Positions 39,025 to 52,713 of a DNA stretch of 64,000 bases are shown here, in pieces. Below the pieces are notes generated by a model. That model searched no databases. It was not told where the DNA came from and was given only the letters and a program-made list of their open reading frames with translations. Position 1 is the first letter of the stretch. Each line of letters begins with the position of its first letter. This DNA comes from a virus (taxonomy: Duplodnaviria > Heunggongvirae > Uroviricota > Caudoviricetes). The DNA lies in the IMG/VR virus record IMGVR_UViG_3300028833_006001, positions 1 through 64,000 of that record, one strand, 5' to 3'. A program made the translations under genes and the position numbers.

Positions 39025-39666
39025 TTAATCTTTCCATGCTTGAATAACTTTTAAATTATCTAATTGAAGTCCTCTTGCATATTGAATATTTTTTGTATCA
39101 TCATCAACAAAAATTACTTTGTCATATTTATCACAAAGTTCTTTAAGAACATTTGCTTTCTTTTCAGCATCACTTTTTCCAGGATAATCTTTAAATTCAT
39201 CATTTATAGCATGTGAAAGTGTTTCTTTAAATATATCTTCAAGTTCTTTAAGATTACCATCATCATCTTTATATCTTAAAAAATCACGTAAAGCTTTTTT
39301 AACTGCTTCTTCACATCCTCTTGCAGTTAAGAAACAAAAATCATAACCAGCTTTAATATATGAATCCATTATTTTAAGGTTTTTAATAAGAGGTGTTCCT
39401 TCAATAATTGAATTATATACTTTTAAATCATTTCTAAAATCTCTGAAATCAAACCAATCTCTATGATTAGGAACATCAGGGTCTATAGCAAATTCTTCTG
39501 TTGTAAGTGCTATTTCTTTATTTGTTTTAGGATCTTTCTTATAAATTTTTATACTATCTGGTTTAACTTTAAGAAGAGTATCATCTATATCAAAAACAAT
39601 TAAGCCACTTACTGATTTTGGTAGTGGTTTAATTGCTTCATTTATATATTGTAATAAACTTTTCAT
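39025..39666 (-). CDS. HAD-superfamily phosphatase/hydrolase with short-form leader ([10 protein letters not shown])
   Basis: HAD motif I is [11 protein letters not shown] (DxDxT). Motif IV-like is [10 protein letters not shown]. Confidence 0.55.
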   Translation of the reverse strand: [213 protein letters not shown]

Positions 39667-39730
39667 TTTTATATATAATATAGTTTAATATATATAAAAA
39701 TAAATTATTTAAGTATCATTAATATCTATT

Positions 39731-40045
39731 TTATATAGATTTACTACATATTACTCCTGTATATTTTTTATCTTTTATATAATTTTTTATATCAGAAACA
39801 ATTTGTTTAGTTATCTTTATTTCTTCATTAAGAACAAATCTTAATTCAAGATTCTTATTTATATCATCAAGAAATCTTTGCGTAAATATTTTAATAGTAT
39901 AATATAGATATTCTGTTCTTATAAAATATCCATTTTCATCTAATATTCTATTATACCAATCAGTTATTTCATAATCCATTTTCCAGATATAATCATCTTT
40001 AATATCTAATAACTGTTCAACATTTTCTAATTCTTTTACTCGCAT
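39731..40045 (-). CDS. hypothetical protein (104 aa), no leader
   Basis: ORF only. Confidence 0.3.
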   Translation of the reverse strand: MRVKELENVEQLLDIKDDYIWKMDYEITDWYNRILDENGYFIRTEYLYYTIKIFTQRFLDDINKNLELRFVLNEEIKITKQIVSDIKNYIKDKKYTGVICSKSI

Positions 40046-40259
40046 ATAAGTTCAACATTAGTAATTTTTGCATCATTCAAGTCATATTTATAACTAGCTA
40101 CATCAACAGCATCATATTCATCAGATACATTATTGATATAAACTTCACCTTTAGATGAATAACTATTACCAAATAAATAAGAAATTTTATAAGTTGCCAT
40201 ATATTATAATTTTAATTTATTATATATATTAATAATATAGAAAAAGAGATTGATTAAAC

Positions 40260-40910
40260 TCAATCTCTTTTTATTTTTTTATACCATTTTGGTTTTTTAA
40301 TTTTATCACATCCATAAAACATTTGTGTAAAAGGTCCTTCATGTTTTAAATTATCAAAATTTGTTTTTAAATTCTTGCATCCCCAAAACATATATTGTAT
40401 GTCAGCATATTTATTAATTTTCCACTGTGATAAATCAATATCTAAATTTTCACAATACATAAACATACTTTTAAAATTAGTACATGAACTTATATCCCAA
40501 TTTTCTAAACCTTCACCGATAAAGTTTTTACAACCTAAAAACATTGCATACATTTCTTTTACATTAGATACATCCCAAGAAGATAAATCACAGTCAAAAT
40601 AATCACATTCTCTAAACATTTGTTCCATATTTTTTACATTAGAAACATCCCAAGAAGATACATCTATAGATTCAATTTCAAGATTTTTATATTTCTTAAG
40701 ATCATAAAATATATCTGACATATCAGTTATTTCACTTGTATCTATACAATTAAGATTAAGATTAGGACCTCTTTCTTTATATAACTGTATGATTATTTCT
40801 TTTAATTCACTAGAATTTTTAGGGAAATAATCTTTTTTAATATTTTCCTTTTTTATATGTTCATTATCTAATTTTAATTTCTCATTAATATAATTTATTA
40901 TTTCTATCAT
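40260..40910 (-). CDS. leader-family (variant MIEIINYINEKLKLDNEHIK) DUF285/BspA-type LRR protein
   Basis: Repeats DVSSWDVSNVKNMEQMF and DLSSWDVSNVKEMYAMF. Confidence 0.65.
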   Translation of the reverse strand: MIEIINYINEKLKLDNEHIKKENIKKDYFPKNSSELKEIIIQLYKERGPNLNLNCIDTSEITDMSDIFYDLKKYKNLEIESIDVSSWDVSNVKNMEQMFRECDYFDCDLSSWDVSNVKEMYAMFLGCKNFIGEGLENWDISSCTNFKSMFMYCENLDIDLSQWKINKYADIQYMFWGCKNLKTNFDNLKHEGPFTQMFYGCDKIKKPKWYKKIKRD

Positions 40911-40911
40911 A

Positions 40912-41208
40912 TTAATTTTGTATATATTTCATTATAAATTCTGCTATTTGTTCTCTAATTTTTTGTTGTTTATCTTCTTGTAAAAATTCATCATCATCTG
41001 GTTGATATGCTAAATATTCTTTTGAATATTCTTGAGATAAACAATCAGAAAATCTTTTTAATCGTTTTGAATTATTAAGACCATTTAATAATTCTACAAT
41101 ATTATCTTTTGTAAGATGTTTACTTGCTTTAAAAATATCTAAAACAATAGTACACCAAAGTGGAATCTTATCTAATTCCTCATTTATATATTCATTAAAA
41201 TTTTTCAT
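40912..41208 (-). CDS. small protein with short-form leader (MKNFNEYINEEL)
   Basis: Leader pattern. Confidence 0.45.
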   Translation of the reverse strand: MKNFNEYINEELDKIPLWCTIVLDIFKASKHLTKDNIVELLNGLNNSKRLKRFSDCLSQEYSKEYLAYQPDDDEFLQEDKQQKIREQIAEFIMKYIQN

Positions 41209-50707: not shown

Positions 50708-50754
50708 AATGTTGTTTATTAAATTACATTAATAATATAGAAATAAAATAAAAA

Positions 50755-50783
50755 AATTCAAAGATTTTATTTCTTTGAATTTT
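50755..50783 (-). terminator. rho-independent terminator
   Basis: AATTCAAAG-ATTTTATTT-CTTTGAATT followed by TTTTTTTATTTT on the minus strand. Confidence 0.6.
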
Positions 50784-50789
50784 AATTTA

Positions 50790-51248
50790 TTAATATACTC
50801 CTTTAAAATAATATATATTTAATTTACCAGGTTTTTTAACTAATAAATTATTTGATGGATATTTTTGTCCTAAGGAACTTTCATCGGAATATATTTCTAT
50901 ACCATTTTTATTATATAATTCTTTAAATCTTTTTTTATCTTGTTTATATAATCTAATAGCATCTTCATCTTCAATAACACTTAATGATACTCCATCTGGT
51001 AAATTAGCATGTTCTGCACAAAATGTCATAATATCTTTTTTAATTTTAAATGTTTTAATCCATGTTTCTAATACATCAGCAATATCATAATTATCTTTAA
51101 AATTCAATATATATAACATTAAATCAACAAATTTATTTTCATGTAATTTAAATTTAGTAGTAAATTGTTCTGGATCTTTTACTTTTGTTTCTTTATTAAG
51201 ATGAAGTTTTTCTAATATATATTGACTTAAATTATTCATATTATTCAA
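50790..51248 (-). CDS. leader-family protein (MNNLSQYILEKLHLNKETK)
   Basis: Conserved leader. The start may be the fourth Met. Confidence 0.6.
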   Translation of the reverse strand: MNNMNNLSQYILEKLHLNKETKVKDPEQFTTKFKLHENKFVDLMLYILNFKDNYDIADVLETWIKTFKIKKDIMTFCAEHANLPDGVSLSVIEDEDAIRLYKQDKKRFKELYNKNGIEIYSDESSLGQKYPSNNLLVKKPGKLNIYYFKGVY

Positions 51249-51831
51249 ATATTTCTTTAATTATATTTATTAATTTATTCCATGCTTGAGTAGTAAATCT
51301 AGATTTATTAATTGCTTCATTAAAATCATCTTTATAATATTTAAATTCTTTAATACCATTTAAAACTTTTGTTAAAACATCATCAGTTAATTCATATATA
51401 GGATGATTACCATATAAACCACCACTTTTATATTTTTCTGATTTATATTCTAATTCATACTTATAATATGAAGCTACACTAAATGATTTTTTACCATTAC
51501 TATAAAATAATCTAATATATATTAAAACTTTATCAGATGGTAAATTACCCATATTATTTTTAGCTGGTTTAGTAATATCAAATTTTAAATCAATATGAGA
51601 AGTATTATTTGGATTTTTAAAATAAAGATAATAATTACAATATTTATATCCATTATCATTAATTGAAGAAGAAGTTTCTTTTTCAAAATTATCACTATTA
51701 TCTTTATATCCTATATCTGAAAATGCTTTATCTAATTCTTTTATTATATAATCAAAATCATTTATATTTTCTATTTCTGTATCTTTATTAAGATGAAGTT
51801 TTTCTATTATATATTGTTTAAGACTTTCCAT
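51241..51831 (-). CDS. leader-family protein (MESLKQYIIEKLHLNKDTE)
   Basis: Conserved leader. Confidence 0.6.
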   Translation of the reverse strand: MESLKQYIIEKLHLNKDTEIENINDFDYIIKELDKAFSDIGYKDNSDNFEKETSSSINDNGYKYCNYYLYFKNPNNTSHIDLKFDITKPAKNNMGNLPSDKVLIYIRLFYSNGKKSFSVASYYKYELEYKSEKYKSGGLYGNHPIYELTDDVLTKVLNGIKEFKYYKDDFNEAINKSRFTTQAWNKLINIIKEIFE

Positions 51832-52297
51832 TTTTTAACCAATCCAATAGTTTTTTAAGCCATTCTTCAAGAGTAATATTATCTCTTTTTAATCCTATTT
51901 GTTTTTCAATTCTAAACTTACCATAAGGACATTCCCATTCTAACACAGGTTTTTGTAATATTTCTTCAATTAAATTAATTGCATCTTCCTTTAATATTAC
52001 ATATCCCCAACTAATATTTTTTTTAATATTATCTTCCCATTCAGATGAAGCAAAGATATATTTATATTTATCATTTAATGTATGATTTAATACAGTAAAT
52101 TCTTCTGAATGATTATGTAATTTAATTATATTTTTATCATAATCAGAAATTTCATAATAATAAAAAGATATATAATTAGGATTATTAGAAAGAGCACTAT
52201 GTGAAATTAGCAATACTGGTTCTTCTTCTAATAAATTAACTTTAGTATCTTTATTAAGATGAAGTTTCTCTATTATATAATTATTTATTTGCTTCAT
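51818..52297 (-). CDS. leader-family protein (MKQINNYIIEKLHLNKDTK)
   Basis: Conserved leader. Confidence 0.6.
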   Translation of the reverse strand: MKQINNYIIEKLHLNKDTKVNLLEEEPVLLISHSALSNNPNYISFYYYEISDYDKNIIKLHNHSEEFTVLNHTLNDKYKYIFASSEWEDNIKKNISWGYVILKEDAINLIEEILQKPVLEWECPYGKFRIEKQIGLKRDNITLEEWLKKLLDWLKNGKS

Positions 52298-52713
52298 ATG
52301 ATTTTATTTTGAAGTATTAATTTATACTCTCTTTCAACATTTTCTTTAGAATCAGATGAATGCATTGCATTTCTCATTTCATCTATTCCCCATTCTTTAC
52401 GGACTTTATTCTTAATAGTTTTTAAATCTTTAATTGGATCTTTACAATCCTTTCTTAACATATATGATATAGAATCTCCAGAAGCCATATAAGTACATAA
52501 TTCATTATAAAATGGTTTATCTTTTAAACCAATATAAAGTTCTTTTGCTTCATCAATTGATAAAGTTCTTTTAACTTTTTGGACAATTTGCCAATTTTTA
52601 TTTTTTAATAGATTATCAAAATCATATTCATGATCTAAAAAATCTGGTTTAAGAATTGCAAAACCATTTACTTCTGATAAAGATTCTTTTATATATTGAA
52701 CTATTGTTTTCAT
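52294..52713 (-). CDS. nucleoside-diphosphate-kinase-like protein with short-form leader ([12 protein letters not shown])
   Basis: FAILKPDFL matches the NDK [34 protein letters not shown] matches [32 protein letters not shown] matches NIIHGSDS and retains the catalytic His. Confidence 0.55.
   Translation of the reverse strand: [139 protein letters not shown]

What the first reader, a model, noticed from the sequence alone, without database searches (positions are those of the whole stretch)
39025..52713. Leader-tagged metabolic enzymes (NDK-like, HAD phosphatase): nucleotide-pool modifiers possibly pre-packaged in the capsid
- 52294..52713 matches nucleoside diphosphate kinase core blocks: KPD, LKD(K/R)PF, and the catalytic-His block NAMHSSDS versus NIIHGSDS.
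- 39025..39666 has HAD motif I, DIDDT.
- Both start with the short-form leader. If the leader is a capsid-targeting sequence, these enzymes would enter the host with the DNA and act before any phage transcription.
- Possible roles are altering dNTP/NTP or alarmone pools, or dephosphorylating a host factor. Such pre-packaged metabolic cargo would be unusual.
Basis: inference. Interest (0 to 1): 0.65.

Follow-up and report, generated by a model that had tools for sequence, protein, structure and literature searches.

The report
Leader-tagged NDK and phosphatase in megaphage
A giant rumen phage puts a 10-residue N-terminal tag, very like phage T4's capsid-targeting peptide, on an NDK-like enzyme, a phosphatase and dozens of other proteins. 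They are therefore probably loaded into the capsid and injected with the DNA, but this has not been shown directly.

Summary
ORF 52294-52713 (- strand) is a diverged nucleoside diphosphate kinase (Pfam NDK 63 bits; confident AF2 model with an NDK fold). The catalytic His118 and six other active-site residues are invariant in 83 relatives. A 10-residue Kpn-loop deletion removes two phosphate-binding residues. ORF 39025-39666 (- strand) is a HAD phosphatase with all four catalytic motifs invariant. Its nearest phage family is annotated as polynucleotide kinase, and its weak fold matches are to AphA and T4 polynucleotide kinase/phosphatase.

Both start with M-K-x-[LI]-x-x-Y-I-x-E. This leader is kept in nearly all homologues and sits on about 26 of 76 ORFs in the window.

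The capsid-targeting reading is supported only indirectly:
- The window encodes a T4 gp21-type (S77) prohead protease and a gp23-type capsid protein.
- The leader has the length and pattern of T4 propeptides (IPs MKTYQEFIAE, gp24 MAKINELLRE, Alt MELITELFDE).
- The capsid protein has IHEIHE|S where a propeptide cut is expected.
- The NDK gene lies beside neck and structural genes in every clade examined.

There are no proteomic data. The very large number of tagged proteins and the conserved KLHLNKD after the putative cut are unexplained.

Verdict: a new variant of a known kind, worth testing.

The parts
52294..52713 (-). NDK-like ORF, 139 aa (leader + linker + NDK core)
   Evidence: Pfam NDK 63 bits; AF2 pLDDT 88; NDK fold.
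52684..52713 (-). Short-form leader [10 protein letters not shown] of the NDK-like protein. The putative cut is after E10.
   Evidence: translation; conserved in nearly all of 84 homologues; a low-confidence detached helix, aa 4-12.
52306..52665 (-). NDK core, aa 17-136. K22, Y60, R105, N115, H118, S120 and E129 are kept. A 10-residue Kpn-loop deletion removes the R88 and T94 equivalents.
   Evidence: 83-sequence alignment against a canonical NDK..
52348..52371 (-). Catalytic-His block NAMHSSDS (His118 codon at 52360-52362)
   Evidence: His is invariant in 83 of 83.
39025..39666 (-). HAD-superfamily phosphatase ORF, 213 aa
39637..39666 (-). Short-form leader [10 protein letters not shown] of the HAD protein
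   Evidence: E10 is invariant; Y7 and I8 are conserved in at least 90%.
39577..39594 (-). HAD motif I, FDIDDT (nucleophile D26, general acid/base D28)
   Evidence: invariant.
39097..39333 (-). HAD motif II (FLTAR, 39319-39333), motif III (K169/K170, 39151-39165) and motif IV (FVDDD, 39097-39111)
   Evidence: invariant.
26051..27802 (-). T4 gp21-type prohead protease, 583 aa. The S77 domain is aa 20-170. The acidic C-terminal half carries nine W-[IV]-x-E-E-[FY] motifs in ~12-aa units (nt 26483-26860).
   Evidence: phrog_207, E=1e-40. Peptidase_S77, 38.8 bits..
24199..25932 (-). gp23-type major capsid protein, 577 aa. The N-terminal propeptide ends YAAIHEIHE|S (nt 25807-25824). The motif YATPLNTLGMG follows (nt 25705-25734).
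   Evidence: Pfam Gp23, 103 bits..
27924..28586 (-). Acidic 220-aa ORF just upstream of the protease. It is a candidate scaffold or core protein and contains KYIDE|H.
   Evidence: It has no family match, so the role rests only on position and composition.
28931..33122 (-). Array of eight long-form leader ORFs (M..L..YI.EKLHLNKD), directly upstream of the scaffold-like, protease and capsid genes
37283..42028 (-). Leader-ORF cluster that contains the HAD gene. Seven of its nine ORFs carry a leader, including a 408-aa protein and a DUF285 protein.
50790..54713 (-). Leader-ORF cluster that contains the NDK-like gene (eight leader ORFs, one of them a DUF285 protein)
54920..61166 (-). Conserved structural neighbours of the NDK gene: a T4 gp13-like neck protein (60303-61166), a giant ~1000-aa protein (54920-57928), and further leader ORFs (57986-60299)
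   Evidence: synteny of gp13-like, 79-aa ORF, giant protein and NDK is kept in all clades examined.

Best explanation
The window comes from an AT-rich rumen megaphage with a T4-type head module.

The 10-residue N-terminus M-K-x-[LI]-x-x-Y-I-x-E is a capsid-targeting propeptide of the T4 kind:
1. It docks the newly made protein onto the scaffolding core of the prohead.
2. The shell then closes.
3. The phage's S77 (gp21-type) protease cuts after Glu10 and the peptide leaves.
4. The mature protein stays inside with the DNA and is ejected into the next host.

Under this reading, a few copies of two enzymes enter the cell before any phage gene is expressed. One is an NDK-fold phosphotransferase stripped of its Kpn loop. 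The other is a HAD phosphomonoesterase of AphA or polynucleotide-3'-phosphatase type. They would act on nucleotides or nucleic-acid ends.

Shown here: the identity of the enzymes and retention of their catalytic residues; the modular, conserved leader; the T4-type protease and capsid protein; the match in pattern to T4 propeptides.

Inferred: docking, cleavage after E10, packaging, ejection, and the substrates.
For: (1) The head module is T4-like. It has an S77 protease (phrog_207 E=1e-40; Pfam S77 38.8 bits) and a Gp23-type capsid protein (103 bits), next to a tail sheath.

(2) T4 propeptides are 10 aa long and follow M-x-x-hydrophobic-x-E-hydrophobic-hydrophobic-x-E:
- internal proteins, MKTYQEFIAE
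- gp24, MAKINELLRE, and Alt, MELITELFDE
The leaders here ([20 protein letters not shown]) match in length and at positions 1, 4, 7, 8 and 10. T4-family prohead proteases cut after Glu.

(3) The phage's own capsid protein has YAAIHEIHE|S at aa 37-42, conserved in relatives. A more distant clade has AMFE|A there. The protease tail carries 7-9 repeats of W-[IV]-x-E-E-F in most relatives.

(4) The leader is modular:
- It sits on unrelated folds: NDK, HAD, DUF285 and many ORFans.
- The linker before the core varies in length.
- It always starts at residue 1; this holds in 293 cluster representatives.
- Synonymous codon variation shows that selection acts on the peptide.
- It is unstructured or a detached helix in both AF2 models.

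(5) Cutting after E10 would leave an NDK N-terminus of canonical length.

(6) A canonical NDK in another megaphage has no leader.

(7) The NDK gene follows the gp13-like neck gene and a giant protein gene in all clades examined, including clades with few other tagged genes.

(8) Four NDK homologues carry the capsid-protein motif TP.NTTGMG in their N-terminal region.

(9) T4 precedent: diverse internal proteins share only the targeting sequence, and the enzyme Alt is packaged this way.
Against: - There is no virion proteome or N-terminal sequencing for any member of this clade. No relative was found in the GenBank phage collection by megablast of the region or by tblastn with the HAD protein or a 23-aa leader peptide.
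- The tag is on about a third of the ORFs in this window and on 16 of 34 in a relative. The implied cargo repertoire far exceeds anything known.
- In the long form the residues after the putative cut (KLHLNKD[IT]K) are as conserved as the leader. Simple T4-type cleavage does not explain this.
- A related contig has a leader variant, MKxITEFLVKKH, with Lys at position 10.
- The predicted mature proteins are not basic like T4 internal proteins; their median pI is 5.9.
- One tagged protein elsewhere is an NrdD C-terminal glycyl-radical fragment, which looks like a cytoplasmic part.
- The leaderless dNMP kinase and NMNAT-like genes lie in the same late region. Position alone therefore does not prove a virion location.
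Confidence: 0.6

Rival explanations
1. The leader is a shared N-terminal module with a function other than capsid loading. Possible roles are recruitment into a cytoplasmic complex, recognition by a chaperone or protease that times activity, or a recombination handle for cassette shuffling. The NDK-like and HAD proteins would then be ordinary intracellular enzymes. They would work during infection alongside the nearby dNMP kinase and NMNAT-like genes in nucleotide supply or nucleic-acid end repair.
For: - Nucleotide-metabolism genes cluster in the same region: DNMK at 46596-47687 and an NMNAT-like gene at 35771-37279.
- In one relative the NDK and HAD genes are two genes apart.
- The number of tagged proteins is very large.
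- The conserved KLHLNKD lies beyond the putative cut.
- A tagged NrdD fragment exists.
- The predicted mature proteins are not basic.
Against: - No known system uses such a tag for these purposes.
- The detailed match to T4 propeptides in a phage with homologous head-maturation genes would be a coincidence.
- The dNMP kinase, helicase and NMNAT-like protein lack the tag.
- Codon-level variation argues against a purely DNA- or RNA-level role.
- NDK is syntenic with neck and structural genes, not with replication genes.
Confidence: 0.27
2. The NDK-like protein, and perhaps the HAD protein, is no longer an enzyme of its ancestral kind. It would be an NDK fold repurposed as a structural or ligand-binding internal head protein, or as a protein-histidine phosphotransferase. 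The 'metabolic enzyme' label would then mislead, whatever the leader does.
For: - A 10-residue Kpn-loop deletion removes the T94 equivalent, and the R88 position is variable (E/K/D/N).
- The protein scores 53 bits against a 155-bit NCBIfam equivalog cut-off.
- The best sequence matches are NME5 and NME7, which are axonemal structural NDK homologues.
Against: - K22, Y60, R105, N115, H118, S120 and E129 are invariant in 82-83 of 83 relatives down to 44% identity. That is hard to explain without catalysis at the His.
- Mimivirus NDK is among the best structural matches, with the highest TM-scores. To my knowledge it is active with a shortened Kpn loop.
- All four HAD motifs are invariant.
Confidence: 0.1

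Closest known systems
Phage T4 capsid-targeting sequence (CTS) on internal proteins IPI-III, Alt and gp24, cleaved by the gp21 prohead protease
   Same: - A 10-residue N-terminal peptide with hydrophobic residues at 4, 7 and 8 and Glu at 10.
- It is shared by otherwise unrelated small proteins encoded in variable arrays.
- A homologous S77 protease and a gp23-type capsid protein are encoded.
- An enzyme (Alt) is among the T4 cargo.
   Different: - The tag here is on dozens of proteins per 64 kb, against a handful in T4.
- A 19-residue long form has a conserved part after the putative cut.
- The cargo is not basic.
- The cargo includes an NDK fold and a HAD phosphatase.
- Nothing has been shown experimentally.
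Ejection and inner-body proteins of giant phages phiKZ, 201phi2-1 and SPN3US
   Same: A giant phage, a T4-related prohead protease that cuts after Glu, and many different proteins packaged and ejected, including an enzyme (virion RNA polymerase).
   Different: Those propeptides are mostly over 100 residues with an A/S/G-x-E motif, and about 50 head proteins are known. Here the tag is short and T4-like, and the putative repertoire is larger.
Mimivirus nucleoside diphosphate kinase (PDB 2b8q, 3b6b)
   Same: It is among the best fold matches, with the highest TM-scores (TM 0.83, rmsd 1.6-1.9 A). It is a virus-encoded NDK of about 130 residues.
   Different: Sequence identity is only about 20%. 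Mimivirus NDK has no leader and keeps a full set of nucleotide-binding residues (own knowledge). The phage protein has a larger deletion.
Phosphatase domain of T4 polynucleotide kinase/phosphatase, and class B acid phosphatase AphA (the DDDD group of the HAD superfamily)
   Same: - DxDxT nucleophile motif and a C-terminal acidic DD(D) motif.
- PHROG 415, annotated 'polynucleotide kinase', matches at E=2e-10.
- Best fold matches are AphA and T4 Pnkp.
   Different: - There is no kinase domain.
- Fold matches are weak (TM about 0.45, from a model with pLDDT 75).
- No PDB sequence match.
- It carries the leader.
- The substrate is unknown.
Phage P1 Dar antirestriction proteins, and encapsulin cargo-loading peptides
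   Same: Short terminal sequences direct enzymes or defence-countering proteins into a capsid-like shell (P1 appears among the papers listed but was not read; the encapsulin comparison is from my own knowledge).
   Different: The shell and protease families are unrelated, the signals differ, and there is no sequence similarity.

Membership tests
Nucleoside diphosphate kinase (Pfam PF00334) | Significant match to the family profile and an NDK (ferredoxin-like) fold | tested here: met
   63.2 bits against a cut-off of 27. The AF2 model (pLDDT 88) matches NDK structures with probability 1.00 and TM up to 0.83.
Nucleoside diphosphate kinase (Pfam PF00334) | Catalytic His in N-x-x-H-G/S-S-D-S, with Ser120 and Glu129 supporting it | tested here: met
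   N115, H118, S120 and E129 are invariant in 82-83 of 83 relatives.
Nucleoside diphosphate kinase (Pfam PF00334) | Full nucleotide-binding set (K12, Y52, R88, T94, R105) and an intact Kpn loop | tested here: not met
   The K, Y and R105 equivalents are kept. The R88 position is variable, and the T94 region is removed by a 10-residue deletion.
Nucleoside diphosphate kinase (Pfam PF00334) | Score above the NCBIfam equivalog cut-off (orthodox Ndk) | tested here: not met
   Best score is 53.1 bits against a cut-off of 155.
Nucleoside diphosphate kinase (Pfam PF00334) | NDP kinase activity through a phospho-His intermediate | not testable with these tools
   Needs recombinant protein.
HAD-superfamily phosphatase | Motif I DxDxT, motif II S/T, motif III K, motif IV DD | tested here: met
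   D26, D28, T30, T114, K169/K170 and D188/D189 are invariant in 32 aligned relatives. Motif I is present in 120 of 120.
HAD-superfamily phosphatase | Profile match and a Rossmannoid HAD fold | tested here: met
   Pfam Hydrolase 27.1 (cut-off 26.4) and DUF2608 29.3 (cut-off 22.6). The fold search returns almost only HAD enzymes, with weak TM of about 0.45.
HAD-superfamily phosphatase | Assignment to a substrate class (polynucleotide 3'-phosphatase or nucleotidase) | tested here: inconclusive
   PHROG 415 'polynucleotide kinase' at E=2e-10. AphA and T4 Pnkp are the top fold hits. All NCBIfam subfamily hits fall below cut-off.
T4-type capsid-targeting sequence (CTS) cargo | An N-terminal propeptide of about 10 residues ending hydrophobic-x-Glu and shared by unrelated proteins | tested here: met
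   compared with T4 sequences.
T4-type capsid-targeting sequence (CTS) cargo | The phage encodes a gp21-type (S77) prohead protease and a gp23-type capsid protein with a propeptide | tested here: met
T4-type capsid-targeting sequence (CTS) cargo | Cargo is basic and DNA-associated, like IPI-III | tested here: not met
   Median pI is 5.9. The NDK is 7.7 and the HAD 5.3. T4 Alt shows that this feature is not obligatory.
T4-type capsid-targeting sequence (CTS) cargo | The protein is found in virions with its leader removed, and is ejected on infection | not testable with these tools
   No isolate or proteome exists. No relative was found in the GenBank phage set by the searches run.

The most novel reading that the evidence does not exclude
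A clade of rumen megaphages (contigs up to about 474 kb) has expanded the T4-type capsid-targeting peptide onto a large share of its proteome. The long form alone covers at least 293 distinct 50%-identity protein clusters. The result would be a huge, fast-evolving arsenal of pre-packaged proteins injected with the DNA.

Among them is a conserved core cargo: an NDK-fold phosphotransferase and a polynucleotide-phosphatase-like HAD enzyme. These would reset host nucleotide pools or nucleic-acid ends, for example against nucleotide-depleting or RNA-cleaving defences, before any phage gene is transcribed.
Probability: 0.35. Interest if true: 0.85.

Novelty: new variant of a known kind. Interest (0 to 1): 0.62.

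Why it matters
If the tag works as in T4, it gives a simple sequence rule for reading the 'injected proteome' of uncultured giant phages directly from metagenomes. It would also show that phages can deliver high-turnover metabolic enzymes, not only inhibitors, ADP-ribosyltransferases or RNA polymerases, at the moment of infection. That would open a class of immediate-early counter-defence or take-over functions. It would also supply natural short tags for loading foreign proteins into large capsids. 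The claim can be tested without culturing the phage, by heterologous protease and tag assays and by swapping the tag into T4.

Tried and rejected
- **Search of GenBank phages for relatives:**
  - Megablast of the region found nothing.
  - tblastn with the HAD protein and with a 23-aa leader found nothing.
  - The only NDK hit was a canonical, leaderless NDK in LR756504.
- **Literature search for the leader strings:** it returned only irrelevant hits. Searches for megaphage N-terminal tags or packaged NDK found nothing.
- **Word-indexed protein search with a leader profile:**
  - At 42 aa it gave only 12 short fragments.
  - It was replaced by the exhaustive representative search.
- **Pfam and PHROG scans of 15 other leader-bearing proteins:** no families were found.
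- **PDB sequence searches with the capsid protein and the protease:** no hits.
- **Signal peptide or lipoprotein reading:** rejected. The leader is hydrophilic, with no hydrophobic core and no Cys. The lysozyme ORF at 49934-50455 shows what a true signal peptide looks like in this genome.
- **DNA- or RNA-level element (translation enhancer or promoter):** mostly rejected, because synonymous codons vary at roughly genome frequencies.
- **Co-variation between the leader and the capsid-protein cut site:** not seen. The distant clade changes the capsid site to AMFE but keeps YI.E on its NDK, so this test was uninformative.
- **Leader arrays in PAU-like cultured relatives:** none found in the 40 kb of PAU examined.

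Full report
**What is there**

The window is 19-38% G+C. From about 11 kb to 61 kb it is one block of - strand genes. ORF 52294-52713 (139 aa) and ORF 39025-39666 (213 aa) lie in this block.

**The NDK-like protein**

- It matches Pfam NDK at 63.2 bits (cut-off 27) over aa 18-136.
- It matches 89 distinct PDB NDK sequences at E<=0.01, best NME5 and NME7.
- An AF2 model built on 45 relatives has pLDDT 88 and an NDK fold. Mimivirus NDK gives the highest TM-scores (0.83).
- I aligned 83 relatives (44-95% identical) with a canonical phage NDK. K22, Y60, R105, N115, H118, S120 and E129 are invariant or nearly so.
- A 10-residue deletion removes the Kpn-loop Thr, and the R88 position is variable.
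- It fails the NCBIfam Ndk equivalog cut-offs, 53 against 155 bits.

It is therefore an NDK-fold phosphotransferase with an intact His centre and an altered nucleotide site. It is not a dead relic, and it is not an orthodox Ndk.

**The HAD protein**

- It passes Pfam Hydrolase narrowly (27.1 against 26.4) and DUF2608 (29.3 against 22.6).
- All four HAD motifs are invariant in 32 aligned relatives: FDIDDT, FLTAR, K169/K170 and FVDDD. About 958 homologues exist.
- PHROG 415, annotated 'polynucleotide kinase', matches at E=2e-10.
- A moderate AF2 model (pLDDT 75) hits AphA class B acid phosphatase and T4 polynucleotide kinase/phosphatase, but weakly.

The most likely chemistry is removal of a phosphomonoester from a nucleotide or from a nucleic-acid end. 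The substrate is not established.

**The leader**

- Both enzymes begin M-K-x-[LI]-x-x-Y-I-x-E: [10 protein letters not shown] and [10 protein letters not shown].
- The leader is kept in nearly all 84 NDK and 120 listed HAD homologues. The linker between it and the core varies in length.
- In the window, about 26 of 76 ORFs carry it, all on the - strand.
- Eighteen of these have a 19-residue long form, M..L..YI.EKLHLNKD[IT]K.
- In a 474-kb sheep-rumen relative, 16 of 34 ORFs around the HAD gene carry it.
- A profile of the long form finds 293 cluster representatives at E<=0.001 among 1.84 billion proteins. The match starts at residue 1 in almost every case.
- Of the best 149, four are DUF285 proteins, one is an NrdD C-terminal fragment and almost none of the rest match any Pfam family.
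- Synonymous codons vary within the leader at roughly genome frequencies, so selection acts on the peptide.
- In both AF2 models the leader is a low-confidence helix that does not pack on the core.
- The sheath, capsid protein, protease, helicase, dNMP kinase and NMNAT-like protein all lack it.

**Why capsid targeting is the best reading**

The window encodes a tail sheath, a Gp23-type major capsid protein (103 bits) and a gp21-type S77 prohead protease (phrog_207 E=1e-40). An array of leader ORFs lies immediately upstream.

In T4, internal proteins, Alt and gp24 enter the prohead through a 10-20-residue N-terminal capsid-targeting sequence. gp21 then removes it, cutting after Glu.

The T4 sequences are MKTYQEFIAE (internal proteins), MAKINELLRE (gp24) and MELITELFDE (Alt). 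The leaders here have the same length. They also share Met1, hydrophobic residues at 4, 7 and 8, and Glu10. A loose version of this pattern hits 1 of 78 ORFs in a 49-kb T4 region and 24 of 76 here.

Further points in favour:
- The phage's own capsid protein carries YAAIHEIHE|S at aa 37-42, conserved in relatives. A more distant clade has AMFE|A there.
- The protease has a long acidic tail with 7-9 tandem 12-residue repeats, QNW[IV]xEEF[AS]PE[VL], in most relatives. Both features fit a hydrophobic-x-Glu specificity.
- Cutting after E10 would leave an NDK N-terminus of normal length.
- A canonical NDK in another megaphage has no leader.

**Gene context**

- The NDK gene directly follows a T4 gp13-like neck gene, a 79-aa gene and a giant 1000-1750-aa gene in every clade examined. 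This holds in clades where few other genes are tagged, and the NDK keeps its leader there.
- In one relative the NDK and HAD genes lie two genes apart, downstream of the homologue of the window's 543-aa ORF.
- Four NDK homologues carry the motif TP.NTTGMG in their N-terminal region. This motif is otherwise seen only in the capsid proteins of these phages.

**What argues against it**

- Nothing here shows packaging or cleavage.
- A third of all ORFs being cargo has no precedent.
- The conserved KLHLNKD after the putative cut is unexplained.
- One recoded relative has the variant MKxITEFLVKKH, without Glu10.
- The predicted mature proteins are not basic.
- The tagged NrdD fragment looks cytoplasmic.
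- Leaderless nucleotide enzymes lie in the same late region.

I therefore put the capsid-targeting model at about 0.6. A different role for the tag, with ordinary intracellular enzymes, is at about 0.27. Repurposed non-enzymes are at about 0.1.

**Novelty**

I found no paper that describes this leader or a packaged NDK or HAD enzyme. The mechanism would be a known one, the T4 capsid-targeting sequence. The new elements are the phage clade, the scale, and the enzyme cargo.

Noticed in passing
window 25705-25734 (capsid protein aa 67-76); proteins P0049, P0050, P0057, P0063: The capsid protein has a strongly conserved motif, YATP.NT.GMGN, after a variable Gly/Ala/Pro linker. The same TP.NTTGMG string appears beside the leader in four NDK homologues and in no other protein fetched. 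It may be a second short docking or cleavage motif shared by shell and cargo.
   Followed up: partly
window 26483-26860 (protease aa 315-440): The S77 protease is 583 aa, against 212 in T4. Its acidic tail carries 7-9 tandem 12-residue repeats, QNW[IV]xEEF[AS]PE[VL], in most relatives and only one or two in a distant clade. It may be a built-in scaffold domain that the protease cuts into short peptides.
   Followed up: partly
P0217, P0225, P0235, P0295, P0300: Some long-form proteins contain a second or third internal copy of YI.EKLHLNKD, like fused tandem genes or polyproteins. This would fit a cleavage-site role.
   Followed up: no
P0309 (132 aa): A long-form leader is fused to the C-terminal zinc-ribbon and glycyl-radical segment of anaerobic ribonucleotide reductase NrdD (…TRIIGYL…). 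This is an odd cargo for a capsid tag.
   Followed up: partly
L039 (Logan SRR28408347 contig, 9.3 kb): This relative has many in-frame stop codons under table 11, so it probably uses a recoded stop as Lak megaphages do. It also has a variant long leader, MKxITEFLVKKH. The window itself reads cleanly with table 11.
   Followed up: no
window 35771-37279 and 46596-47687: Two leaderless genes lie in the late region. One is a 502-aa protein with an NMN/NaMN adenylyltransferase-like N-terminus, possibly for NAD salvage. The other is a 363-aa dNMP kinase with a C-terminal extension of about 100 residues.
   Followed up: partly
window 28931-29977, 40260-40910, 53248-53991: Three leader-tagged proteins are built of DUF285 (BspA-type leucine-rich) repeats, with Pfam E-values from 1e-38 to 1e-134. 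Four more turned up among the long-form hits in public data.
   Followed up: partly
L036 21334-22377 (Sphingomonas phage PAU gp270): PAU gp270 is annotated 'internal capsid protein' and lies next to the homologue of the window's 699-aa ORF. It begins MKGLHNLYEAKLNE, which loosely resembles the leader. No leader arrays were seen in the 40 kb of PAU examined.
   Followed up: partly
window 54920-61166 and loci L037, L049, L054, L058, L061: The gene order is strictly conserved across diverged clades: gp13-like neck gene, a 79-aa gene, a giant 1000-1750-aa gene (MEFVDNTGHIFSLPSY…), then NDK. The giant protein has no family match.
   Followed up: partly
window, long-form leaders (e.g. 30431, 31331, 51831): Ile8 of the long-form leader is encoded by ATA in 16 of 16 cases, against 39% ATA genome-wide, giving an invariant TATATA. 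Short-form leaders mix ATA and ATT. This may reflect recent common ancestry or an unexplained nucleotide-level constraint.
   Followed up: no
window 49934-50455 and 43678-45534: A 173-aa lysozyme ORF has a typical N-terminal signal or anchor (MKKIINLLFFIVFSISAFA). A 618-aa protein has a C-terminal Amidase_2 domain. Both lie in the same late block and keep their positions in the 473-kb relative.
   Followed up: no
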